A stretch of 64,000 bases of DNA, from positions 106,330,001 to 106,394,000 of the forward strand of contig NC_086373.1 of NCBI RefSeq assembly GCF_036588685.1, given 5' to 3'. The stretch is from Mytilus trossulus. Taxonomy: Eukaryota. Of this stretch, positions 1-61,902 are shown one piece after another (within the stretch, counting starts at the first letter, position 1; every line of letters starts with the position of its first letter). The notes under the pieces are model-generated. The model worked only from the letters and a program-made list of their open reading frames with translations. It did not search any database and was not told the origin of the DNA. The position numbers and the translations under genes are program-made.

Positions 1-2775
1 GTTACTGGCCTTGGTATGAGCTGACATACATTGACAATTGATAGGGTGTGGAGGTCTTTTCAGATAGTTTTAATGATAATGATTTTAAATTCAGTTGAAA
101 CCCTGACCTTGTGTTACTTTTGTATCAAGATAGAATATATGATAACTTAATTGTTTCTTTTCTATTGATAAAAGGACCTTTTAACCACCAGTTAAAGGCA
201 AATCATGAAGGTGTCATATGTTTTCCAAAAATATGATGCTGTAAATGATTTTTCACAATGAAGTTGAACACCAAATTATGCAGTTAAAAGGCTATTGATT
301 TTGGAGGGAGCTATAAATTTAATTGGGTATACTTCACATTTTATTTTCATCTTTGACAGACATCATGAAGCATATGGTGTACCAATGATGAGTCAAACCC
401 ACTCTAGAAGTCAATAACGAATGTATGGTGCTCCTTTTATGATATATATCACTTTATCTGTAGACAATAGGCTAATTAACAATCAATAACATGATGTTTT
501 ACTGATGGGCAAACCTCATCATTCACTGCTTATCGATCATGCTGCTGTGATCACTGTGAATCATTCATTTATATGTCTTAAATCTTCTACAAAGTAAACC
601 AGGCCAAAAGTTGTAGGTGCTATATTGTATATTACACTGGCCAAATTTATGTTGACATAAACAAGGATGTCTTTAATAGGTGCATAGTTCTCATATCAAG
701 GTCAAGCAATCTGAAGTTAATCTCATTTCATTGCTCTATTATGTCATGGAGACTAAAATAATAAATTGTAATGCAATAAAATATTGTCTGCCAATATTAG
801 ATGTGTTTACCTAGAATAATTGACGTTGAAATATTTGCCACTGGCCTATCATTTGAATATGCATCTATTTATTTGCCACTGGCTCTATTATTCTGCATGT
901 GCATATATATATATATTTGCCTCAAGCCTTAATTACTTAATGTGCAGGTGATATTTGCCATTATAAAGCATGGTTTGTCACATAACATTCCCAAGGACAA
1001 GTTTTATTGTACATGTATAGTCATTTGTATCACAAAACAAATTTAAATTATTTGGATTAATTGCCCATTAGAACATATTCTTATTTGGATTTTTTTTATA
1101 TTTCTTTTGAATGATTATGCAGGTGAAATGATGTAACACAACCCTGACATTATATTGAACAGAAGAATAATTGAAGCAATGATCATAGGGAGACTATTGG
1201 CAAACAATGAACATAGATCACTTATCAATTACTGCATCATTTGTTTGACTTGCATATCTGTTTTTGTTGGATGCACACAAATATGTGATTTATTGGTTCT
1301 TGGCCATATTGTCTAAGTCTCATCACTGTAAGGTCAAACAGGTGCTCCCTTAATGATATCACTTTGTCAATAGAAACTCAAGGTTGTCATAGAAATCTTT
1401 ACAGTATTATCATGATGATTGCCAATGAGACAACGATTCACCAGAGACTCTGCCTGAACAAGGATGTAAACAACTAGAGGGCAGGTCAAGATTGTTCCAT
1501 TCTAGAATTAAGTCACATCAGATCTTTACCTCAGGGTCTTTTTTTAAAAGGGGTATAGATCTTCACAGGAATTTCAAATTCTGACCAATAAGGAATGAAA
1601 AGAAGGATTCACCATAGATTGAAAATCAATAAATAAACATCTGATTGGGAAAAGTTCAAATTGACTTTGATTACAGCTGTTTTTATGTATGAATAATCTG
1701 TCCCATAGTAAAGTTCATCACTGATACAGATTAGATTATGTCAGTAAAAGAGTTTTGGAAATACATGGAGAAAGACAGGAAAGAGACAATTACTCAGACA
1801 ATAATTCTTATTTACTCTCTCTGGTATATTGAAAAAATGACTAATATGGCCCCATGGTATATGTTAAAGTAAATTGTTTGTAAATTGGATGTTGTAAATC
1901 AGCCTGAATTGTTTGATTGGTTTTGAACCCACAAGAGATTTACTGGAATAATTGATATCAAAGATTGATTAGGAAGTATGTAGATCAAGCAGATTTATAA
2001 ACCTTTGTTAACTCCAGGGGAATCTAAGGATCAGATCTAAGGAGTAGAGTAAGACATGTAATCTACTAAGTGCCTGAGAGGTTACTAATGGGAGACCTTA
2101 CTCAGGGGAATCTAAGGAGTTGAGTGCATGGGATTACTGATGAATGGCAAAGAATATTTTAAATAAAAAATGGAGGTCGAAGTGTATTTTGAGTAAAAAG
2201 AACTTAGTGCCATTAGAAGTTAGTGATGATGATAATTGATCCTTGTTTAATGTCCAGTGGCAGATAGTACATGTATATAAGAATGGGATCACATGTATGT
2301 TAGTATCATTGTAGTATTATTTGTCCAATACAATACATGGATTATACTTCCATGTTTATAATGATCCTTGTTATGACAGGTCATTCCTTCATTCTATCTG
2401 TCCATCTGTCTTTAAGACCTTGAATCTTTCAACTTTTTTTTTGGGGGGGGGGAGGGGTTTATGGAAAGGAATGATTTTATATTTGTTCTGTAGCTGTGGA
2501 GATGTCAATTTTTATATCTTAAATGTAGTTACTTCCTGTTTGATGATAGATTTCTTATGAAGCACAGAAGCACTTCATTCTAGAAATGTGTGCATGATCT
2601 AACATACACATAATGTAATTATTCAATTATGCACACTGATAATCATGCTATTATAGATTATGCATGAACCTATAATGAAAGTCAAAAACATATCATTCAT
2701 TGAACATTTATTTGTGTTAGTAGCTTTATTATGATTGTTTATATATAAGAATAACCTCTAAAAATATTGTATTAT

Positions 2776-3051
2776 AGGGTTATTGCATGAATATTGGGGA
2801 ATATTGTCCCGAGGCGAATTTTATATTGCACTCGCAAGCTCTACGAGGGACAATATTCCCCAATATTCATGCAATAACCCTTTTATTGTATAGCAACATA
2901 ATATTTGAAAGTAACATTGGTTTAAACTAAGATTTAAACGTTGATGACGTCATGAATTTTGAAGATTTATTGCACTAGTGTAATATTAGAATTTATTGCA
3001 CGCTAACTTTTGGTTATGTTCTGTGGGAAATATTATATTGCTATACAATAA
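2776..3051. mobile_element. Double-hairpin non-autonomous DNA element (Crypton-like architecture)
   Basis: Perfect 35-bp inverted repeat 2776-2810/2847-2881 with loop ...ctcgcaagctctacga. Immediately followed by a 23/24-bp inverted repeat 2883-2906/3028-3051. Confidence 0.7.
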
Positions 3052-5012: not shown

Positions 5013-6132
5013 CAGGGGCGGATTTAGGCGGGGGCGTGGCGGGCGTGCGCCCCCCCCTAAAATTTGCAAAGCATGGGTTGACTTCAACATATTTAAAGTA
5101 TCAGAAGAGACCATTCAATCTTTTTTAACATTCAAAGTATATAAAACAGTCAGTTTAACAGAATCAACGTGATTACTAATCAACTGACCTACGCTTAGTT
5201 CTATAAATGATTTCAAAGGGAGAAGTCAAACGCGGAGCTGCATTTGATGACACATATAATAGGTTTTTAGCAGTTACACATGTAAAGTAAAAAAAAAACT
5301 GTTACATTGTATTTGCGGTTTTTATAATCAATTTGTTTGATAATTGAAGTTCCAAAACACCCCTTACTCACTTTCACAATTTCATCATGACACGGTCAAG
5401 AAAGCAGTCGGCAGGTAAAATTATTTTATAATATCCGTAATGAAAGATAGAAATACTGTTTCAAGCGAAAGGTTAGTTTATTAATTTGTATCTCTGTGTC
5501 TATATTTACTTCTCATTTGCAACCTAAATATTTAGCCGAAATCTGTACCGTATTACTGTATGCTTGGGTCCCTAGAAAATAAACATAACTGCGTAAATGC
5601 ATCTCATTTTGATTTTAGTTGTTTGTGGCGAACACAGTAAAGTCTGGCACGACCTCCGAAAATCAAAAATGTAAAAAACAGATATTATGAAAGGACAATT
5701 AAAAATCGCTGGTAAAAGTAGAAATTTTCGTTTGAAAAATATATTGGTCTTGTGAGTAGTTGTGATCTGTCTCGTTCACTATGCGTCCGTCTGTCCGCCC
5801 GTCTATCTGTTGATTGTTGTCAGGTGTGGATTAATATAAAAAAGAAGATGTGGTATGATTGCCAATGAGACAACTATCCACAAAAGACCAAAATGACACA
5901 AACATTAACAACTATAGGTCACTGTACGGCCTTCAAGGCGGTTTCAGCTTGAAACTTTAATTCCTCACTAATTTTAACGCACAATAGTTCGAGATATCAA
6001 CATTGCACCCCTTTAGAAGAATATTTCAATAATTTTACTTTAAAAAAACCTCCAAATTTTTTTCGCCTCGCTCCGCTCGGCGAAAATAACAATTTGCGCC
6101 CCCCCTAACTTGAAATCCTGGATCCGCCCCTG
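5013..6132. mobile_element. Non-autonomous TIR DNA transposon with 5-bp TSD (hAT5-like)
   Basis: TIRs caggggcggatttagg / cctggatccgcccctg, flanked by ctacc at 5008-5012 and 6133-6137. GC/CpG-rich ends and no transposase ORF. Confidence 0.85.
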
Positions 6133-6364
6133 CTACCTTAGATTCATAGAATATTTTTGATGTTTTATTTCAAAGCTATGTGACAATTTACACCAGATTT
6201 GAATAATAAATTTACATGTTGTGCATTAGCTTGAGCTTTTTGGGATTAATTTATCCAACCTGTAAATTGTAGTTGGAGTCATTGTAAGTACATTTATTTC
6301 ATATCAGTTAAGAATAAGCTTCCCGTATTGGATTAAAAGGGAAAACATGACATTTATTATTCTT

Positions 6365-7300
6365 CAGTAAAAAGTTCCATTGGTCATAAATAGAACAAAA
6401 CAGACCAGAAAACGGGTTGTGAACGGACTTTTATGATGACGGGTGGGGCATGGTTTCCATCTGTTAATGACTGTTGGGGCGGGGTTTTCGTCTGTTAATG
6501 ACCGTTTGGGCGGGGGTTTTGTCTGTTAATGACTGTTGGGACGGGGTTTCTCTGTTAATGACCTTTGGAGCGTTGTTTCTCTGTTTAGAGAGATGTCCGT
6601 TTAATAAAACATTTTCCTGATTTTAATATCATATTCAAGTTGTTGAATTGCTTACCATATGTTTTCAAAAATTATAAAATTATAGAGAACATTAAGTTTT
6701 AATATTCTGAAATATTGCACTAAAATGAATGGCTAGTCTTCAATTTTTGCCATAGAAATCGTACAACTAATCGAGTTTGTTTTGGACATTTTGAATTTAT
6801 GAAGATTTTCAAAGACATGGTTCATCAATGAAATAAACATAATAGTTCTTGAAGAACTGGACATTATCGTGATACATGGACTGCCTGTAGGACAGTGGTA
6901 ATTTGACTGTGACAGGGATAATGACCTCGCCTTCGGCTCAGTCATTATCACTATATCAGTCAATACCACTGTCCTGTGGGCAGTCCGTATTATAGTATTA
7001 ATGTATGGACTTTTTAATATTGGCCCTGTAACATACCCATACTCTGTCCGAGGCCATTATTAATATCAAGAGCATGTTACAGGGCCAATATGAGAAAGTC
7101 CATATATTGATACTTTATAAAGAAATAAATGACATTTTGATTTAATCGATGTCCCGTTTCATCTGTTCATAATGCATGACAGTGATTCGTAATGCACGGG
7201 TGTGATTTTGTAATGCATGACTAAGATTTCATAATGACTGGCTGTAGCAATTTCTCCGTTCATAATGACCAGATTTCAGGTGTAATGGGACTTTTAACTG
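6365..7300. mobile_element. Non-autonomous TIR element with subterminal repeats
   Basis: TIRs cagtaaaaagttccatt / aatgggacttttaactg (15/17). About 30-bp repeats (ctgttaatgac...gggcgggg) at 6460-6590 and cataatg repeats near the right end. No TSD seen. Confidence 0.6.
6878..7115. mobile_element. Double-hairpin element nested in the 6365-7300 element
   Basis: Hairpin 6878-6986 with loop ctcgccttcggctc. Adjacent second hairpin at about 6993-7114 (atattggccctgtaacat / atgttacagggccaatat). Confidence 0.65.
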
Positions 7301-8569: not shown

Positions 8570-8692
8570 AAGCGTTACAGTGTAGATATAATAAGCTCTG
8601 CCAGGTATTACGTAGAGAGCTGACTGATGCTTGTAAATTTGTCAAAGATTCTACTAGTTCTATGTCATTCTCACTGTCATGTTCTCCTTACA
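8570..8692 (+). promoter_or_regulatory. Putative promoter/5'UTR of the 8693 first exon
   Basis: TATA-like gatatataataa at about 8585 and local CpGs, about 100 bp upstream of the ATG. Positional inference only. Confidence 0.25.
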
Positions 8693-8820
8693 ATGGCTGC
8701 AGCTGCTATCTATAGAAAGTTTAAAAAACTTGGTTTAGTTCCGAAACACGGTAAAAAACATAATCATGGAAATCCTAGAGTTAAACATCCGGATGATGAT
8801 GATGAGGAGGATCGGGATAC
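8693..8820 (+). CDS. PDE4: PDE4 alternative first coding exon (MAAAAIYRKFKKLGLVPKHGKKHNHGNPRVKHPDDDDEEDRD)
   Basis: ATG in a good context (acaATGg), 42 codons + 2 nt, donor AC|gtgagt. Phase 2 gives an in-frame join to 35323 (DT-FDVENG). Confidence 0.72.
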
Positions 8821-9585
8821 GTGAGTAATTTTACAGTATGACCTGTTTTATATGAACTTCCGTGTTTAACAGGAATGCATATGTTGTTTATCATAGTTAT
8901 TTATTTATCTTGTGTAGAATTTCTTCATTAATTTCCACCAACATGTTGTTTTATAATGAGGTAACAGAAAGAAACATTGTAAATATCTCGTTTTGATGAT
9001 TTAATTACCTCATGCACAACTTAAACTACTTTCTTGGTGTTAGCTGTGAATGTTTTAGGAATTATTTGAAGATGTTGATGTGTAAACAAAAAAAGGGGGG
9101 GATGATAAAAGATTTGAAGATTGAGAAGGGAATCATTATGGATATCTTGATAATACCTTTAAATTTTAATGTATGTTAAGATGAAGCATCATCGATGATA
9201 ATCCCAAATATAGTTTTTTATTGCAAAGCTATTAATAATCTGGCTTTGACATGTATGTGCACTACTTTTGGTTTGTTTGTTGTTAGTCTGTTTTATTTTT
9301 TAGTCTTAGTAATACAAGTTGTTTCCTATTGTTTCATGAAATATGATTGAAGGTTTCTGTCCCAGTGACATACATTTAATACTTTTGAATCAAATGTATT
9401 TTTTTACTTTTGATTTATTTCTCAAGGACCTTTCATGACACACTAACAGTAGTTTTCAATGTGTCATTTACCATTATTAAGTACCAGTACAATTTTGTTT
9501 TGTTGCAGTAATTCATAATGACCCATATTTCACAGTTCAGCTATTTTATTGAAGTTTGGAAACCTTATGTAGTAAGTTACCATTT

Positions 9586-26600: not shown

Positions 26601-28859
26601 CATATCCTAGAGTGTGTCAGTTAATTGTCAAGTGTGAATCTATAACTTAAAAGCATTGATGATGCATTCTGGTTTGTGTCTGAGTTACTTATCAAAGATG
26701 TATAGTGTATCCTGGTTTGTTGTAGTAACTCGTGAAAAATACAAGGTATATCATTCAATGATCTTTATCAAATGTGGTATGATGGCCAGTGAGACAACTC
26801 TCCAGAAGAGACCAAATGACTAAATAAGCTACCAACTGTTACCTTTGCCCATATAAATAAATTGCTTAAAATAATATTAATATTCAGACAATGACACTGA
26901 CCCAAATGAAGAAGACGTTGAACCCAAGTCATCAAACAAAATCTTTATAACTTTTGTCATTTATATTTTATTACTGTTTACTGCTTTTAAGTTTATGGGT
27001 TTTAACACACTGCATGTTATTAGTTATTAAGTTAAACAAATATTTATTTAAATTTTCAATAGATTATAAATATTTACAGTAATTCTTAAACGTTTTTTTT
27101 TTAATTTCTTTAATTCCTTGCTAATGTGTTTTTAATTGCTCTAATTATTTGCTGACTTGGGCAGAAGGTGTAACATAATACAACATTGTGCAGATGATTT
27201 GAATAAAGTTTTCCTTATCCCATTGAACTGAAAGTGTTTCCAAGAATTTATTCCCTGAACATTTCTATGAACTATGTGTCTTTCAGTGAAAGTTTGCAAA
27301 TATAACATATGCTTTCCTCATTTCTCAGTTATAAATAAGTTACATACACTAAATTTTAACTCTATTAGACAAGATGAATTTAGCCAATTTTGATTGTTCT
27401 GTAAATCTCCTTTTGGTTTTCATACTTTCAGATGTTGGTTTTTTTTGTTTTTTGTTTTTGGCTTTCTGAAAATTTTTGGTCTTTAAAGCATACATGATCA
27501 AGGTTATATCCAATAGGAAATTCAGTCCTTATATGCATTAAAGCATATATAATTCATATATTTAATGTGGCATTTTGAATCTAAGGGAGTCTGAAACTCA
27601 ATTTTTGAGTATTCCCTTTCAAATGTTTTTGTTATGGACAATATGTATGTAGTATACCAACTTTCCAAGAGATAAAGTAATTGACAGGAACAAACTAGTA
27701 AATATTTGTGAGATGTCTAGTAAGGAAACGTATTAATTGCAGTATTGGCAGCTACAATTATTTATTACATGAAACATATATTTTTCAGTCTATGAATAGA
27801 CTACTGATGGAAAGATATTTTCAGAGAAAATTTGGGCAAAGATCCAATGTAGAAATTAGAAAAGGGGGGGGGGGGGGGGGGGGTAACCTATTTGCTCTCT
27901 TTTATGGCTGAGGATGGATCAATATTATTCTGACTTACTTTTATTACCTAGATTATACTGAGAACTGTATTGTGATTAGAGGGATTTACTCAGGAAAACG
28001 TCCAATTTATGTTCAATAATTAGAAATATATGGAATATTTGATATAAGTTAGTTTGTATAAATTTGCTTTATAGATACATTGTGCAATTTGATTCCTCAA
28101 CTTCTTTTTGCTTTTTATTTAATAATAATCAGCTTGTATTATTATCTGAAGCCAAATAAGATAAGAATTTATATTAATCTAATCAAGAACCCATAAAGGG
28201 CATCATTTTACAACAATATTATGGACAATATGATTGGAAAAAAGAAAAAAACAAGAACCTTATATAATACAATGTACTGTCATGTTATGGACAGGATCAG
28301 AGCCTCAAACACATCATGTATGACTGTCTTACATAACTTTTACAAAATATCTCATAATAATCATATACTATTTTATATATTATAATTTTACACCTGGATC
28401 TTATTACTAAACATTTAATAATATAATTGCTTAGGCACATGAGAGTTGGTAAATGCTCATAATAAAAAAGATATTAAGATTGAATCTGGAAGATATCATC
28501 CTTAATGTGATGACAAAAAGTTGCATGTATTTAATTTTAGGATTGACTCTGGAAGATGTTATCACTAATGAGATTACCAGAGATAAAACACACTTTAAAG
28601 TTATATCATAAATAAACATTTTTAACTCAGTCATACAAAAACAACAAACCTAATCATATATGATACAGATTTTATTGACCTTTGTAGTTATAGCTATCTA
28701 TTAAGATTCAGTTACTTTGTGATTCTTCATCAAATATTACTTTCACAGATCATGCAGTCCCATTACATAGAAGTACGACTGATCTTTAAAAGTACACTAC
28801 ACATTTTTAATTAATTGATTGCTGGCAACTAGATAATGAAAACTGATTTTCTTATTCCA

Positions 28860-41257: not shown

Positions 41258-44200
41258 CAAACATTATTGTTACTAAATTTCGGGGTACTGGTACTTTGTG
41301 GATAGAAATGTTTATATATTGAATTAAGTGAAATTTACTAAAATTGTTTTATTTCCCTGCATTTTCTGTTATGAGAGAAAAGTTTATGATGTGGACTTCT
41401 TCTATTTTTGTAACTGAGCTGTGAGTTTGAATCTATAACATTATTGGCCAGCTTTCACTGACCTTCGTTAGCAGGTTATTGACTACAAGAGCTGGCATCC
41501 AATATCTTGTGAACTTGGTTTGATCTCTTTGTGAGGGATGATGTAATCCTAATGGCCATTTTACAAGAGAAAAAGCTTAGTTAATATCAATAATTCAAGT
41601 TACATTAGTGTTAAGTAACAAATTACAGGAATTCTGACAAATTCTATTGCTGTGTATTAATGTTAATAGCAAAATACATTTTTTTGAATGTTTGTAGAAC
41701 ATAGTTGATACCTCCTCGGAGTGCCTGTCTGTAGAAATCATGACTATCTAGTAATTATTATACTCTTATTACTGTTAATTGTCTTCCGTCATGAAGCAGT
41801 GTGGAGGATACGGGAATGCTTTTATCTGTTCTTCTTCCGTCCATTAAGATTGACATCAGCAATATTTTGGAGAAATCGAAGTAGAACAAATAATTTTAAA
41901 GGAGTTATGCCCATTTGAAATATAAATGCTGAGGAAAACATGAAAAGGCTTTTCACAAGTACATTTCTCATTGGAGTTAAAATTGTTGAAATTTATGTCA
42001 AAGATTTGCACAATCAATATCTCAGATGGAGTCAGAAAATCAGAATTGGTAAAATATGTTTTTGGGAGTTATGGCCCTTTGAAAAGTAAATGATCTTTAA
42101 AATCAGTAGTGTTAGCCCTCTCCCACCTATATCAGTAATCTTTATCCTGTCATCCTAAGACACTTTCAAAAATTATCAATGCTATTCATGCTGTACTATC
42201 TCACACCACACTATCTCTCAATACGACCAATAACCAAACCCACATGGTAAAGTCAGCTATAAAAGGCGTTAACTTGACAAAATGTGCAACAGTTGGAAAA
42301 ATAACAATGTCCTGATATGCAGGCTAATATCTTCAACACAGCTTTTACTTCAATCTTTTTGCTAATTAGGTATTAGGCTAAAGACCCATGGTATTACTTG
42401 TAATCCTGTGTAACTTATTGAATGATGGTAGTCATATTGAGTAGTGGTAATTAAGAGGGTCCTTATTTGAGAACCGTAGGGAATAAGGATTTCAATGATT
42501 ATATTCTTCTCTATTGATGACACTGGTTTGCTGCCTAAAGTACTGTCTCACTAACAGTTCCCATGACAGATGCAAAACATATCCCTTTATATCAAATATT
42601 TTCATGGGGAATTTGACCTTTTCACCTTCAATTCTTTTGTTAAAAATGAAAAAAAACAGAAAGGTTATCAAGATATGATATTCTAAATGAATGTTATATT
42701 TGAAATAGAATCAACATTTTACTTTTATCATGGACATAAATCTTTGTGATTTTCAATGTTTGGTGGAGCCTCCAATAAAACATCAATTTCTGTGATGATT
42801 TGTCCTTTGTTAAAAGATATCATTAGATTGTGTCAACACAGTTTTTGTTAGAACATTACATAATGATGCTACAATCAGTCCTCAGTAATGATAATTGTAA
42901 AAGTCAGTTTGATTGAGAAATTAAATGTGATTTGTTTTGTAATACACATTACCAAGCAATATTTAAAGGGTAGAGGGCAAGTTTGACTTCATTATGTTTT
43001 TTGATTGATGGATTTTTAATCAGGTTCAAATCAAAGTTTTACTCAGATAATAATGATTTTTCATGGTTCATAGACTGATTGAACAGTTGAACTGAAAGAA
43101 ATAGTGAATACTTTTCGACAAATCTTGTTATATATTTCTGAGCTCTTTAGAAAAGTAAGTTTGTTTCATTTGTTTATTTCTGAGTTTTAGAATCTTGGTT
43201 ACATGCAGTGGGAATTTTCAAAATTTTGTTCAACTAATCAGTTTTGAGTAAATCTTGCAAAACAATGTGAAGTGTACTGTTAGGAGTGTAATGTATTTTT
43301 AAAAGTTCATTAATGTCGAGCTCTCAATGTCTGTTATGAGGTGTCAGAAAACTACTTATTCTAGTACTTTCATGGTTCTACTGATAGCTGTGAACCCTGC
43401 ATGTATACTTACCAAAATAGAAACAATATTAACCTCACTTGTTACCAGGAATGATGAAAATTGCAATGTCTTCTCCCGTAATTAATTTTTACTCAAGTTT
43501 ATGTTTTTCCACTTTCCAGGTAAAGCTTTTCCATATGTTTTTTACCTAGTAGATATAAGAAGATGTGGTATGAGTAAATATTACCTATAATGGTTTACTT
43601 TTACAAATTGTGACTTGGATGGAAAGTAACTATGTCTCATGTCAATTTTTAAAATTTGTAAAAATAAACCTTTATACAGTCCTCAACACGGAGCCCTGGT
43701 TCACACATAACAGCAAGCTTTAAAGGGCCCCCAAAATGGCTAGTGTAAAAACCATTCAAACGGGAAAATTACCAACGGTCTAATCTATATTAAACACTTT
43801 ATGAATCACATCAACAAACAACAACTACTGCACATCAGATTCCTGACATAGAACAGGTGCTAACAAATGCAGCAGATTTAAAAGCTTATTTTTTTCACTT
43901 TCCATGTATGCTTTTCCATCTGTTTATCCAACAGTTATATGATTACTCGTTCTTTCTTATTCTGTTACCAGTAATGTTGACCATTAAATATAGAAATTTA
44001 AAGGAGATGTGGTATGATGCAGCCAATGAGATAACTGTCAACCAGAGTTCAAATGACATGGATTTAAGCAATTAAAGGTCACATTTTGGCCTTCAACGGA
44101 GCAAAACCCATAACCACAAAGTCAACTTTAATAAAAGGCCATGATATGGTAAAATTTACACATTAATATGAAAAAAAACAAATGACTAGAATTAAAAAAG

Positions 44201-44271
44201 GGACAAACAGCGTTACCAACGACAACCACTGAATTACAGGATCCTAACCAATTATAAATGTGTTAAGGTTA

Positions 44272-44606
44272 ATTCTAATGCAACAACGTTTGTAACGTTC
44301 ATTTTGATTGGATTACGTCACTTATTTACATGGCATCAATTGACAATTGATGCTATGGGACGTACGCGCAAGCGCAGACGGCATATGACAGATTTTAAAT
44401 ACATGTTTTAACGTTGTTTTCTATCAGTTTCATTAGAATGGAGATAACAATATTGTATTTTAAGCTCCGACGGCATCAATTGGGGATTTGATGGTCGCAA
44501 ATACCTGTTTACTGTCTCCGCTAACGCGTCGCCAGTAAACTTAATTTGCGACCATCAAATCCCCAATTGATGCCGTCGGAGCTTAAAATACAATACAGTT
44601 ATCTCC
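44272..44606. mobile_element. Double-hairpin element (Crypton-like architecture)
   Basis: Short IR attctaatg/cattagaat (44272-44280/44431-44439) abuts a perfect 52-bp IR (44451-44502/44544-44595). The inner stem gtttactg/cagtaaac closes the loop ctccgctaacgcgtcg. CpG-rich, and it appears to interrupt another repeat. Confidence 0.75.
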
Positions 44607-46139
44607 TAAATATGTTTGTGGTAAATGAACCATACAGTTTCCACTTTATGGCTAAACATAATAATAACCTGTAAAATCACTCGGAAATGTAATTTTGGCA
44701 AAATTCAACAGCATCTTGTAATACATGTATATGGAAACGCCTTTAATATCACTGTGGCTTATTGCCACTTTTTGTTTGTTTTGAAATTGTTGGAAGATGA
44801 TGCTTTAAGTATGCTTGGATTAAGATGATAATGTAAACACATTATTATTAGGAGTAAATATCAGAATGATCTCTCTTATTATTACATGCTGATAATGTCT
44901 TAATAATGTTAAGTGGTGTATAGGAATCAAATATATATCAAATGGAATTAAAGGCTTTTAAAGATCATCAAAAACATTAAGTTAATTTGAATTGTATATC
45001 ATGCATAATTAAAAGTGAATTAGGCATATCAAATTTATAGAAAATTGAAAATTTACTTGTGATGAATGTTGAAGGAAATTAATTTTTCAACGCTGTAATT
45101 TCAAACATTGGTTTGACTGGGAAATGTCGGAAGTTTTTCATGCTAACTGAATAAATTGCATTATCGAGAGAGCTTTATACCTTAAATCAGTCGATGAAGA
45201 AATTTTACATTTCCCTGGATTTGATATCAAAAGAATGCACATTGATTTCCATCTAAAGTTCTGTCAACTTCTCAGGAATCAATATTTTCAAGTTTTAGTC
45301 TTAGAAATGTTAAAGCACTTCATAGAAAAATCATCTTCTCAATTGAAAAGAAGTCAAATATAATCTTATCATGTGAATAAATGGGGAATAAGTAATTGAA
45401 GAAATTTAATCCCCACCTGATTTTCCAATCTGTGGATTTCTACAAAGCTTAGACAATACTTGGATTATTTTCTGGAAAAAAAATCTTTCTCCATCTCCTT
45501 AAATATCAAATTGATTAAGTTTTATTTTAGCTTAGTAAACATTATATTTCTGTGGTAATTAGACAAACCCCAGTGATCCTTACAGATTTTATTGGGAACT
45601 CTCAGCTTTTATGGTGTAATAAAAACTTAGAAATCACTAACAAGACTTTACCACTATAGATGTCATGTATGTTCTCATTAAAAGTCTGCTTTCTAGAAAG
45701 AACTGGTAGAAAAGAAGTATAAAGTTGAGGTTTACACAAATTTATAGACTTATTGCATTTGTTTAGGTGGGAGAAACTTAGTGCTGCAACTAGGAGTGCA
45801 ACAGTACTCAGTAGGATCAAATTGTTGAGGTTTTAGAACTGCATTTTTTTTTCATGATAAGAAAAGAACAAAGTTTTGTATTGATATCTAAAGTATGATG
45901 ATTTGTTTTTCTTAGGGAGATATTTAAAATAAACAACAGCATTAAATCAACAATCATCAGTGTTTGTCTAAACATACTTTGGCCAGTGTTGGGTGAGGAT
46001 ACAGATCTCAAAATCTTATCTTTCTATGATCATTGCTTTTAATATTTTATAGTGTTGTTCATCTTGAGGTAAAGCTTTGCAATGCATTGTGACTCCTGTA
46101 TGATGATACTATCATTATTGTGATGTTCTAGTAAGCTTA

Positions 46140-46338
46140 TATAGATTAGACCGTTGGTTTTCCCGTTTGAATGGTTTTACACTAGTCATTTTGGGGCTCT
46201 TTATAGCTTGTTGTTTGGTGTCAGCCAAGGCTCCGTGTTGAAGGCTGTACATTGACCTACAATGGTTTACTTTTATGAATTGTTATTTGGATGGAGAGTT
46301 GTCTCATTGGCACTCACACCACATCTTCCTATATCTAT
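46140..46338 (-). repeat. Abundant interspersed repeat (gaagatgtggtatga-tgccaatgagacaact family), best-preserved copy
   Basis: Related copies or fragments at about 1412-1480, 5843-5936, 13594-13660, 26771-26822, 30871-30962, 43555-43880 and 44000-44270 (+), and 47960-48070 and 60090-60320 (-). Confidence 0.75.
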
Positions 46339-47519: not shown

Positions 47520-47925
47520 CTCTCTGCATTGAAGACCTATTGGTGACCTTCTGTTGTTGTCTGTTCTTTGTCATGGTCGGGTTGTCATCTCTTTGCCACA
47601 TTCCCCATTTCCATTCTCAATTTTATTTAAAACTTATTTCAGTTGAGCATAGAAGGGTTAAGTAATGTTCAGAATTCAGAAAAATGACCATTTCTATTTA
47701 GAAACAAGTAAATTTCCAATTTTTTTTTGTACAATTTGGAGTTTCGTATGGCATTTATTGTCATTGAACTAGTATATATTTGTTTAGGGGCCAGCTGAAG
47801 GACGCCTCTGGGTGCGTGAATTTCTCGCTGCATTGAAGACCTGTTGGTGACCTTCTGCTGTTGTCTGCTCTATTGGTCGGGTTGTTGTCTCTTTGACACA
47901 TTTCCCATTTCCATTCTCAATTTTA
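47520..47925 (+). repeat. Two copies of an interspersed repeat ending cacattccccatttccattctcaatttt
   Basis: ctgcattgaagacct(a/g)ttggtgaccttctg is repeated at about 47525 and 47828. A reverse fragment lies at 38820-38875. Confidence 0.65.
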
Positions 47926-48329
47926 AAGTTTCTATTTTCCAGCTTGGTTAGTCAAATCTGGGCCTTTTATAACTGACTATGCAGTATGGACTTTGCTCAT
48001 TGTTGAAGCCCATACATGACCTATAGTTGTTGTTATTATGTGTTATTTTGGTCCCTTGTAGAGAGTTGTTATCAAACATGAAATACATATTGTGTATTGA
48101 TGTTTTGAGTTAACAGGCTGTTTGATATAAAACCTTGACAATATATTTATTTATTTATTAATGTTATATAATTTACACATGTTGGTATTTAGGTCAGTAA
48201 TTTCTGTTTATGTTCTAAGGTATTTATAAACTTAAACTGAATGTTTTCTGTAGTCTTTGGTTTCGAGCCTACCATCTGATGGTTATTCCAGAAATATGTG
48301 TTGTGCTCACTGTTCATTGGTATATGAAA

Positions 48330-59041: not shown

Positions 59042-61902
59042 TGAGACTTGTAACATTTGAAGTTGCATGTCTGCAATAAATTTAACGAAATCCATCCCAA
59101 TTAGTAGAGCAGATATACCCATTTTACTTGCCATATATCAGTAATGTGAAACACTCATTCTATTAATGCAGTTCCTTTAAAACAATAATTGGAGAATGTC
59201 ATATATGATTTGCGGAGTAAAATATATGGTTACCCCTTCCAATTGTTATTAGGTTCATCACATGGGATTTTTCTGTCCATCTAAAAAATAATTCAAAATC
59301 CTGATTTTACAATTACCTCAGAAAACAAATAACCATAATGCAATATGTATTTTAATATTTGCAGATGTTAATCTCAGATTTTACATTTGCAAATATCAGT
59401 TTTATACTCTAGCTCTACTAACTTATCTGAGGAAAATTATATTTGTGACAGTGAATTTTCTATATGGTAGGAATCACCTTGTGGCACTCTGATACTTTAT
59501 TATATTTTCTACTCCTCAAAACTTATTGTATTACTTAAAGTCTTGAAGTGACATAACATGGTTTTATTGAAAACATTCTGAGCTTGATATTTAATTTGTC
59601 TATGGTATGTTTTCTTTAAAGAAAGTTATTTGTAAGAAATAATGTTTTCAACTTAGACAGTAATTTTAAACAGACATGTTTTCTTAATAATTATGTAATT
59701 TTTCATGCTGTTCAATTAAGTTAAACCATGGTTTCCTAAAGTATGGCTTAATTTGATTGTTTAATTCTGAAATTGTCTGCTGTTTTCTAATTAAATGTTA
59801 GTACAATTTACTTTGATTCAGTTCACAATAACTGATACATTTTGTACTAGGATATAGGTGCAGGTTTTAAACAGGAGGGATTAAACTCATGTAAAAGAGA
59901 AATGTTCATTTGACATGGGGTGTTTAGGTTTGATGCCATATATCAGTTGGAGTTGTGAGCCTGTGTTGGGAGAGTGCCATCTTTTCTATCCACTAAAAAA
60001 ACCGTTGTCCTTTGAGGTACATTTCCTTCATGGATTGATATGTATTGTGTAATACAATGAATTGATAACAGAACATTTGAATGAAAACATCATTGGTTGT
60101 CGTTTGTTGCTTTGTTACATATTTTTATTTTCATTCATTATTTTGTACATAAATTAGACCATTAGTTTTTTCTTGTTCAGTCATTCCTGGACCTTTTATA
60201 GCTGACTATGCAGTAAAGACTTTGCTCATTGTTGAAGGCCGTATGGTGACCTATAGTTGTTAATTTCTGTGTCATTTGGTCTCTTGTGAAGAGTTGGTTC
60301 GTTGGCAATCATACCACACTAAAAATTTCTTTTAAACATGTATAACAAAAAGTCATTTATTTTTTATCATTGGGAAAAAAAAACTGAATTTATGCATGCA
60401 CAACACATGATTCTTAACCTTTATTGTAATATATAAGTTGCCTTCAACTACAAATAATATGGAAAACCAAAAATTGTATATATTTCATGATAACAATAGA
60501 AAAATAAAGGTCATGAATTGAATATGAAAAAACTGTCTTTCTAGGTCAACTTTGTCTTATAGAGCTTCTTCCTCAAATATTAGGGTATTTACATAATTTA
60601 ATGAACTGTAATTTGTAACAGGTAATCTCAGCAATGTTATGAATGTTGGTTACTGCCTAAATGCTTATTGTATATCAAGTTGATTGACAAAAAGTTTTCT
60701 CTGACTTGACTCGCCAAGGATTTTCATTTGAAGCCATTCCTCAAAGATCATGCCACTTAACTCAATTGTCTTAACACTAAAAACCTGTCTTGCTTCTTAT
60801 CATTTAAGGCATGCAACCAATATGCTGAACTATCTCAGCACCGACTCATTTGCTGTTGTCAACCACCAAAGTCTTAAAACAGCCTATGGCTAAACTTGTT
60901 GATTACAGAAAAATCACAGCCTTTTCAACTTTTGCATTAATCATCATTCAATGACTTCAATCTCCATTCACCAAGTATTCTATTGATTTCATAAACATGA
61001 AGTTCTAAGCACAAAAAACCCACATTAAACCACTATTCCGTATTATGCCATTACAGTTTTGAGGAAAACATTAACTGGTATAATTTAGCTATAAAATATG
61101 GTACTCTAATTCTCAGTTACATAAGGAAAATTAAATGTAACAGTAAAAACTTTTTATGACACCTATCTGGAATTCTCATAAACAGTGATTTATAGATAGG
61201 TTCTGTTTATTTTAAGGGAAAGTATTGAGTATTATGATAGCTGCCTGCCAGCTTAATGAGGTGAGAAGTAATTTTTCTTGAGTTTATCATGTAACTTTAT
61301 TAGAGTAAGAACTATACCCCAGTAAGATTATCAGAAGTCAAATTCGTGTACTACATGGTAATCTTTGATAACATATTATAGTGCTTGTCTTGTCCTGGCA
61401 ACAATCATCCAGAAAATGTAGTTACCATGTGTTTTGTTGTTAAGATTTTGTTTTTTTAGTAATTTATTGGTAATCCATTATTTTTTTATGAAATAAAACT
61501 GAATTGTGTGCATTATCTACTACTGTGATGTTGTTTTCACAACCAAATTAAAAATAACATCAAAGAAATTTTCAAATTCCAAAAATTTCCTGGTTATAAA
61601 TAAATATTTTTTTCATATTGTTTTCCCACCTGTGAAAAGTTTACCTATTTACAAATGAATGGTGACCCAAGATTCTCAGTTGTTTTCTTTATATTAGGAC
61701 ACTTCAACTACAAGATATTTATAGACTGTTACATATTTTCTCAGCTGTATTAAGTGCAGGTATTAATCATGAAAAACTTCACATGAAGATTTTCTGTGAA
61801 GAATGACAACTGTAGGAACATTTTAAAGGAAGCAGAAATTAAAACTTTTCTAATTCAATAACTTCCATAAATATTTGTTTGTTTCTCATAAATTACCACT
61901 TA

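What the first reader, a model, noticed from the sequence alone, without database searches (positions are those of the whole stretch)
2776..3051. Shared 'double-hairpin' architecture in three sequence-unrelated elements (2776-3051, 6878-7115, 44272-44606)
Seen: each is a ~240-335-bp CpG-rich insert made of two abutting inverted-repeat modules, not one pair of terminal repeats. One hairpin loop in each carries a similar motif: ctcgcaagctc, ctcgccttcggctc or ctccgctaacgcgtcg. In two of them the other module encloses a CCAAT-like attgg and a CRE-like acgtca. The stems differ in sequence but are perfectly complementary in two (35 and 52 bp). No TSD is evident. Inference: these are non-autonomous members of one mobilisation system that recognises DNA structure. 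The best guess is tyrosine-recombinase (Crypton-type) or HUH/ssDNA-based mobilisation, with the loop motif as a protein-binding site.
Basis: partly seen in the sequence, partly recalled or inferred. Interest (0 to 1): 0.7.

Follow-up and report, generated by a model that had tools for sequence, protein, structure and literature searches.

The report
Hairpin-ended Crypton mini-transposons in mussel
These are short, gene-less copies of jumping genes that share their end design, and in two cases their end sequences, with recombinase-coding Crypton transposons in the same genome, and that design suggests they likely move as a folded single DNA strand, a route never shown for this class.

Summary
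The hairpins are real. Elements A (2773-3051) and C (44273-44609) are whole copies of high-copy families. The middle 'element' is a composite: the cut end of a 730-bp family B (6294-6990) plus an inserted family D (6991-7277). All four share one plan: 5' end a, interior, a short inverted copy a', then a long 3' terminal hairpin. There is no target-site duplication. The same plan ends 14 multi-copy DUF3504 tyrosine-recombinase (CryptonA) families in this genome. C and D have coding partners with 94-99% identical ends; none was found for A or B. The a'|b junction mirrors the joined ends plus 2 nt. Targets read A-8 bp-T, with both junctions one base inside one arm and no spacer homology. Stems covary, and G·A/G·T mismatches favour one strand. 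Best reading: non-autonomous CryptonA elements (shown for C and D) that likely insert as a folded single-strand dumbbell by one strand exchange, as integron cassettes do (inferred, untested). Papers read report no terminal repeats in animal Cryptons and no demonstrated mechanism. This scan has reported the same design on other DNA before.

The parts
2773..3051 (-). Element A, whole copy of a 295-bp non-autonomous family (a end at 3051, hairpin end at 2773); tip flipped and 16 bp deleted in this copy
3028..3051 (-). A: 5' end a (24 bp, perfect inverted copy of a')
2883..2906 (-). A: a', abutting the hairpin; a'|b junction is the mirror of the joined ends
2776..2881 (-). A: terminal hairpin b..b', outer 35 bp perfect
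6294..6990 (+). Element B, older copy (79% to a family member) of a 729-bp non-autonomous family; ATTGG near 5' end, internal GC-box-like tandem units; right hairpin arm cut at 6990
6839..6990 (+). B: terminal hairpin (left arm, tip TC-GCC-TTC-GGC-TC at 6926, part of right arm), preceded by a' at about 6822-6835
6991..7277 (-). Element D, internally deleted and 5'-truncated copy of a ~0.9-kb family, inserted in B's hairpin arm; hairpin remnant 6991-7117 lacks its tip; partner is coding family F16 (L323, L324)
44273..44609 (+). Element C, whole young copy (97-99% to other copies) of a 337-bp non-autonomous family; partner is coding family F15 (L211-L214)
44273..44320 (+). C: 5' end a, with ATTGG (44307) and ACGTCA (44315), likely the retained promoter region of the recombinase gene
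   Evidence: promoter role inferred
44428..44439 (+). C: a', abutting the hairpin
44440..44606 (+). C: terminal hairpin, 52 bp perfect core, tip TC-CGC-TAAC-GCG-TC; 98% identical to the end of F15

Best explanation
The elements are gene-less CryptonA-type DNA transposons (coding partners found for C and D, membership likely for A and B) that are likely mobilised in trans by a DUF3504 tyrosine recombinase acting on a folded single DNA strand. Shown: plan a-interior-a'-hairpin; a'|b equals the inverted joined ends minus 2 nt; no TSD; symmetrical target A-N8-T with both junctions 1 nt inside the right arm. Inferred: the bottom strand, as a circle, folds into a dumbbell in which the joined ends pair with the inner mirror copy and make a recombination site with a 9-nt over 7-nt spacer; the recombinase cuts 5'-arm-N^ on that strand and on the same-sense strand of an 8-bp-spacer target, exchanges one pair of strands, and replication resolves the junction, which also raises copy number. 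The GA/GA-closed mini-hairpin at the tip likely nucleates folding or binds protein. Odds: Crypton membership about 0.93, folded single-strand route about 0.6.
For: Partners: F15 (4.5 kb, 4 full-length copies fetched) matches C over its last 182 bp at 98-99% and shares the first 11 bp; its ORF hits DUF3504 and Phage_integrase, keeps R-HxxR-H-Y, and folds like Cre (Z 17.0, rmsd 4.4, 272 aligned). F16 matches D at 97% (200 bp) and 94% (203 bp). 9 of 13 multi-copy DUF3504 families first examined end in the long hairpin, and 5 more were found later. Inner mirror: the a match sits 2 nt closer than at the joined ends in 9 of 11 elements tested, 1 nt in F12, unresolved by the script in F10 (listing). 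Targets: A(-8) in 24 of 27 A, 19 of 20 B, 40 of 43 C; T(+2) in 27 of 27, 20 of 20, 39 of 43; arm complementarity peaks at spacer 8 in all three. The element's own spacer stays at the right junction; the left junction resembles it in 1 of 27, 1 of 20, 0 of 43; copies found by internal-only queries agree (14 of 14 C; 6 of 7 new A, one truncated). All 8 exact matches to A's joined ends lie in head-to-tail tandems, none in a permuted copy. Covariation: 28 of 61 pairs change on both sides, 96.5% of cells paired, 0 of 500 shuffles as high, only 2 one-sided changes. Strand bias over 14 hairpins: C·T 23 v A·G 3 (p 9e-5) and A·C 15 v G·T 5 (p 0.04) on the top strand, so G·A and G·T on the bottom strand. 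The tip polarity follows the ends, not the gene: F9 has its gene the other way round. Precedent: attC and CTX (PMC3458562, passages); Crypton copy number rises despite excision (bioRxiv 2022.05.23.493040, passages).
Against: No intermediate was observed; all mechanism is read from sequence. Long inverted repeats homogenise by template switching (general knowledge), so covariation need not mean function. The mismatch counts use single copies, not consensuses, and families are related; folding energies differ little between strands (bottom better in 16 of 17, by 0.3-5.8 kcal with DNA parameters). a' is short in several coding families (about 5-8 bp in F7, F12). 4 of 13 DUF3504 families (F2, F4, F5, F11) showed no terminal hairpin at their aligned ends and F6 no a'. 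No coding partner for A or B in about 200 YR-bearing stretches. The recombinase fold is closer to Cre and XerA than to integron IntI4 (Z 12.9). B's target shows no match to its own end at -2 (3 of 20). Both D-partner copies carry a stop in the YR exon.
Confidence: 0.6

Rival explanations
1. Classical Crypton model: excision to a double-stranded circle and two-strand recombination into the target; the hairpin and a' serve another role (extra binding site, terminator, or self-maintained palindrome).
For: It is the model in print (PMC3212892 and PMC13565253, passages). The enzyme folds like Cre. Tandems carry the perfect joined-ends sequence.
Against: Two staggered cuts without spacer homology should put the element's spacer on either side or carry donor flank along; neither is seen. 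No 4-6 bp terminal direct repeats. A second, inverted site in a duplex circle should give permuted copies; 0 of 7 loci. It does not explain the fixed 2-nt offset or the strand bias.
Confidence: 0.2
2. Double-stranded circle inserted by one strand exchange and replication, with the long hairpin acting as a replication origin or primer that amplifies the circle.
For: Explains the one-sided footprint and copy gain without a folded site; flipped tips in 2 of 39 A hairpins recall hairpin-primed copying.
Against: Does not explain why a' is kept complementary to a and placed at a fixed offset in unrelated families. Flipped tips are rare (0 of 30 B, 0 of 30 C).
Confidence: 0.12
3. Non-autonomous Helentrons (HINE/DINE-1 type) moved by an HUH Rep-helicase.
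For: HINEs also have subterminal inverted repeats, a 3' palindrome, no TSD and start in T-rich sequence (PMC4067079, passages).
Against: HINE palindromes are 5-10 bp, here 95-200 bp; the long elements sharing C's and D's ends encode a YR gene and no Rep-helicase-sized ORF; the target is A-N8-T, not a T run. No search for HUH elements with A or B ends was made.
Confidence: 0.04
4. Non-autonomous DIRS-like retroelements in which the inner mirror is an ICR that splints cDNA ends.
For: The ICR of DIRS is complementary to both termini (PMC6681497, passages), the same logic as a'|b; many Phage_integrase ORFs of likely DIRS/Ngaro type are in the genome (type not tested).
Against: Partners have no RT and keep large introns; stems avoid G·U-type pairs; tip polarity is independent of gene direction.
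Confidence: 0.03
5. Chance adjacency of ordinary TIR MITEs.
For: True of the pairing drawn at 6878-7115, which joins two families.
Against: A and C move as whole units in 40 of 40 top-scored copies each; no TIRs, no TSD; even the B/D pairing is targeted, recurring at L032 and L254.
Confidence: 0.01

Closest known systems
CryptonA DNA transposons of animals and their non-autonomous derivatives (Kojima and Jurka 2011, PMC3212892; Kojima 2018, PMC5753468: Eulor5/6, salmon Crypton-N1)
   Same: DUF3504 tyrosine recombinase as only gene, no TIRs, no TSD, abundant short derivatives sharing both ends with the coding element.
   Different: That paper found no terminal repeats in animal Cryptons ('n.d.' in its Additional file 1); here a/a' and a 95-200 bp terminal hairpin with a conserved tip recur in many families, and the target has a symmetrical 8-bp-spacer form. 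Repbase/Dfam entries could not be compared.
CryptonF/CryptonS
   Same: YR-only DNA transposons with target preference.
   Different: They have 4-6 bp direct repeats at both ends; these do not.
Integron attC cassettes and CTX phage (PMC3458562)
   Same: Predicted: folded bottom strand as substrate, structure conserved over sequence, one exchange resolved by replication, head-to-tail stacking.
   Different: Eukaryotic; enzyme is not an IntI (Cre-like fold); site is built from the joined ends plus an inner mirror copy; dispersed genomic targets. Works-like claim only, untested.
DIRS1 internal complementary region (PMC6681497)
   Same: An inner segment complementary to both termini.
   Different: No RT, no long ITRs, introns kept.
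Helentron/HINE/DINE-1 (PMC4067079)
   Same: Subterminal inverted repeat plus 3' palindrome, no TSD.
   Different: Palindrome 10-20 times longer, YR instead of Rep-helicase partner, different target.

Membership tests
CryptonA | Autonomous element encodes a DUF3504 tyrosine recombinase with R-H-R-Y and no RT or DDE transposase | tested here: met
   F15: DUF3504 E 3e-8, Phage_integrase E 4e-6, catalytic residues kept, Cre-like fold; 12 further elements hit DUF3504
CryptonA | Non-autonomous copy shares both ends with a coding element | tested here: met
   C with F15 (3' 98-99%, 5' about 78% over 70 bp); D with F16 (97% and 94%)
CryptonA | Same test for families A and B | tested here: inconclusive
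   No partner in about 200 YR-bearing stretches; shared plan, tip and target only
CryptonA | No TIRs and no TSD | tested here: met
CryptonA | Phylogenetic placement with named CryptonA reference proteins; match to Repbase/Dfam entries | not testable with these tools
   No reference sequences held; profile's best PDB hit is the CryptonA-derived QRICH1 (E 3e-14)
CryptonF/S | 4-6 bp terminal direct repeats | tested here: not met
Helentron/HINE | Partner encodes Rep/Helicase | tested here: not met
   Partners of C and D encode YR only; not testable for A, B
Helentron/HINE | 5-10 bp 3' palindrome; T-rich target | tested here: not met
   definition from PMC4067079 passages
DIRS1 | RT/RNase H ORF and ITRs | tested here: not met
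DIRS1 | Internal region complementary to both termini | tested here: met
TIR MITE (incl. Kolobok) | Terminal inverted repeats and fixed TSD | tested here: not met
attC-like single-strand recombination (works-like) | Enzyme binds and cuts the folded bottom strand only | not testable with these tools
   Indirect support:

The most novel reading that the evidence does not exclude
Animal CryptonA transposons are eukaryotic integron-like elements: a tyrosine recombinase reads a folded single-stranded dumbbell whose site is assembled from the element's joined ends and an inner mirror copy, inserts it by one strand exchange into A-N8-T targets, and replication copies it.
Probability: 0.55. Interest if true: 0.8.

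Novelty: new variant of a known kind. Interest (0 to 1): 0.6.

Why it matters
A 2026 review states that Crypton transposition has not been demonstrated and assumes a double-stranded circle (PMC13565253, passages). These ends give exact substrates, a predicted active strand, a cut position and a matched young enzyme-donor pair (F15 and C), so the question becomes directly testable. If true it would be a eukaryotic case of structure-specific single-strand recombination by a tyrosine recombinase, would explain copy gain without TSDs, and would give a structural signature for classifying many unassigned hairpin repeats in animal genomes.

Tried and rejected
Search for coding partners of A and B: none among stretches around Phage_integrase, DUF3504 and two protein-query hit lists; only part of the hit lists was fetched, and only short 3' flanks for the last 20, so absence is not shown. 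Empty allele for A: no joint across it in 4 runs of contigs. Empty allele for C: contigs of X1 and X3 skip about 44251-44653 (77 letters in place of 403 in X3), which fits absence of C but does not fix the junction; X1 may be the source sample. CCAAT/CRE as a shared mobilisation signal: rejected, absent from many families. GNA triloop as universal: rejected, several tips have other loops. Flip-flop of the tip as a regular step: rare. Fold search gave no special likeness to IntI or protelomerases. Literature: searches found no paper describing terminal hairpins or a single-strand model for Cryptons; two searches were too loose to be informative; subscription journals, Repbase Reports (e.g. the CryptonV note) and Dfam were not searchable, and 5 of 6 supplements of PMC3212892 were not read.

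Full report
Setting. The window lies in a 1.30-Gb, AT-rich animal genome (G000:C1:106330001-106394000). The closest named proteins to the recombinase found below are from Mytilus mussels, so the host is likely a mussel.

Observation. The 35-bp and 52-bp perfect stems, the three loop motifs and the ATTGG/ACGTCA boxes of A and C are where stated. CpG o/e is 1.02 (A), 1.51 (C) and 0.40 (middle) against 0.28 for the window. A and C are whole members of repeat families (1514 and 2513 first-look candidates; the 40 scored of each are essentially full length). The middle stretch is not: most hits cover only its first 121 bases. It is the central part of the terminal hairpin of a 729-bp family B (6294-6990) cut by a copy of family D (6991-7277, minus strand, internally deleted). 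The same D-in-B junction occurs at L032 and L254. The window's A copy has a flipped tip and a 16-bp deletion.

Ends and targets. Nested insertions fix the ends exactly: C in C (L072), C in host tandem repeats (L062, L070), A in A (L012), B in A (L055). All families start with TT and end in TA or AA, with no duplication (B had both ends in 20 of 28 loci). Rebuilt empty sites (27 A after dropping one mis-parsed and two tandem rows, 20 B, 43 C after dropping one duplicate) show A at -8 and T at +2, ATA-N8-TAT for A, with arm complementarity highest at an 8-bp spacer. Both junctions lie one base inside the right arm. Only positions -1 and -2 resemble the element's end (A: 19 and 25 of 27; C: 41 and 25 of 43, with 13 more matching the inner copy; B: 9 and 3 of 20), and the element's spacer stays on the right. 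To limit bias from end-matching queries I repeated the search with internal parts: 14 of 14 C copies and 6 of 7 new A copies had the same ends. Contigs of two runs skip the C site roughly; none skipped A.

Coding relatives. DUF3504 has 150 scored matches in the genome. Of 13 distinct multi-copy families first delimited, 9 end in a 90-200-bp hairpin; F2, F4, F5 and F11 did not show one. Eight of the 9 have an a' next to it (5-23 bp); F6 did not. A protein search led to F15, 4.5 kb: its last 182 bp are 98-99% identical to C, its first 11 bp identical and first 70 bp about 78% alike. Its large ORF hits DUF3504 and Phage_integrase, keeps R, HxxR, H and Y, and a database protein of 522 aa matches a two-exon reading. 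The model (pLDDT 91.9) is closest to Cre (Z 17.0), XerA (16.3) and QRICH1 (15.3), then IntI4 (12.9). F16 (L323, L324; 4.6 kb) matches D at 97% and 94% over about 200 bp at each end; both copies have a stop in the YR exon. F17-F19 add three more families with the plan. No partner was found for A or B.

The shared design. Read a to b, the joined ends equal the reverse complement of the inner a'|b junction with 2 extra bases (listing of 15 elements; 9 of 11 by script, 1 base in F12, F10 not resolved). The conserved A sits at -9 on the joined ends, -7 on the inner copy and -8 in targets (read), so a folded site would have 9 over 7 nt where the target has 8 bp. The tip reads TC, 2-5-bp GC stem, 2-4-nt loop, stem, TC on the a-to-b strand in all 19 hairpins listed but F17 (TC..TT) (the script placed 9 automatically, the rest I read by eye), that is GA/GA on the other strand. 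This polarity holds in F9, whose gene points the other way. Stem mismatches favour G·A and G·T on the bottom strand. Across nine C-group hairpins 28 of 61 pairs change on both sides and almost none on one side only; relatedness and palindrome self-correction weaken this.

Mechanism. From established YR chemistry (own knowledge: the 3'-phosphotyrosine stays on the arm side), a junction one base inside the right arm is a bottom-strand cut. Seeing only that junction, without spacer homology, donor-flank carry-over or permuted copies (8 exact joined-end matches, all in tandems), is what one strand exchange resolved by replication would leave. The bottom strand is also the one favoured by the mismatches. 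The inner mirror then supplies the partner strand of the site in a single-stranded circle. How the circle is released is not shown; recombinase excision from the folded strand during replication is the simplest guess. All of this is inference.

Literature seen. PMC3212892: passages, section 8 and Additional file 1 (no terminal repeats in animal Cryptons; circle model). PMC5753468, PMC8869645, PMC4455052, PMC13465315, PMC13565253, PMC3458562, PMC6681497, PMC4067079 and bioRxiv 2022.05.23.493040: passages only. None of the passages describes these ends. Repbase and Dfam were not available, so the families may already be catalogued there.

Earlier scan notes report the same design and the same single-strand idea in this and other genomes. 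My reading of Crypton membership, the inner mirror and a single-strand dumbbell was written down before the first look-up; the explicit one-exchange argument was worked out afterwards and agrees with them. They are not counted as support.

Verdict. Real, non-autonomous CryptonA-type elements; one of the three was mis-drawn. The end design is not in the papers read and points to a testable single-strand mechanism. New variant of a known kind; interest 0.6.

Noticed in passing
L181:3068-6259 (F9) and L168:4525-7755 (F6): The recombinase gene points opposite to the a-to-b direction, while the hairpin tip keeps its polarity; possibly an old inversion between a and a'.
   Followed up: partly
L211:1568-6079 (F15), L177, L180, L187: The long intron of C-group coding elements holds several decayed copies of their own hairpin and a C-like element: self-targeting.
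   Followed up: partly
L155-L158 (F2), L163-L165 (F4): DUF3504 families with arrays of internal hairpins carrying the same tip type after the gene; ends not resolved.
   Followed up: no
L333:2539-5236: A 2.46-kb coding family (F17) inserted cleanly into an A element.
   Followed up: partly
G000 hits (F13): About 14 copies of one recombinase exon at 96-100% identity, some in tandem: a very young family and a good second test enzyme.
   Followed up: no
G000:C2:12157908-12164904; C4:958810-961866; C8:57998895-58002396: Pairs of recombinase copies in inverted orientation a few kb apart, likely nested self-insertions.
   Followed up: no
window 6430-6590: Tandem GC-box-like units (about 27 bp) inside family B.
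   Followed up: no
window 5830-5936, 26772-26820, 44000-44146, 46160-46338, 47527-48070, 60187-60352: Other high-copy repeats, also found inside introns of the coding Cryptons; not identified.
   Followed up: no
window about 8690-8822: A short open frame ending at a GT splice-like site, perhaps an exon of a host gene near B/D.
   Followed up: no
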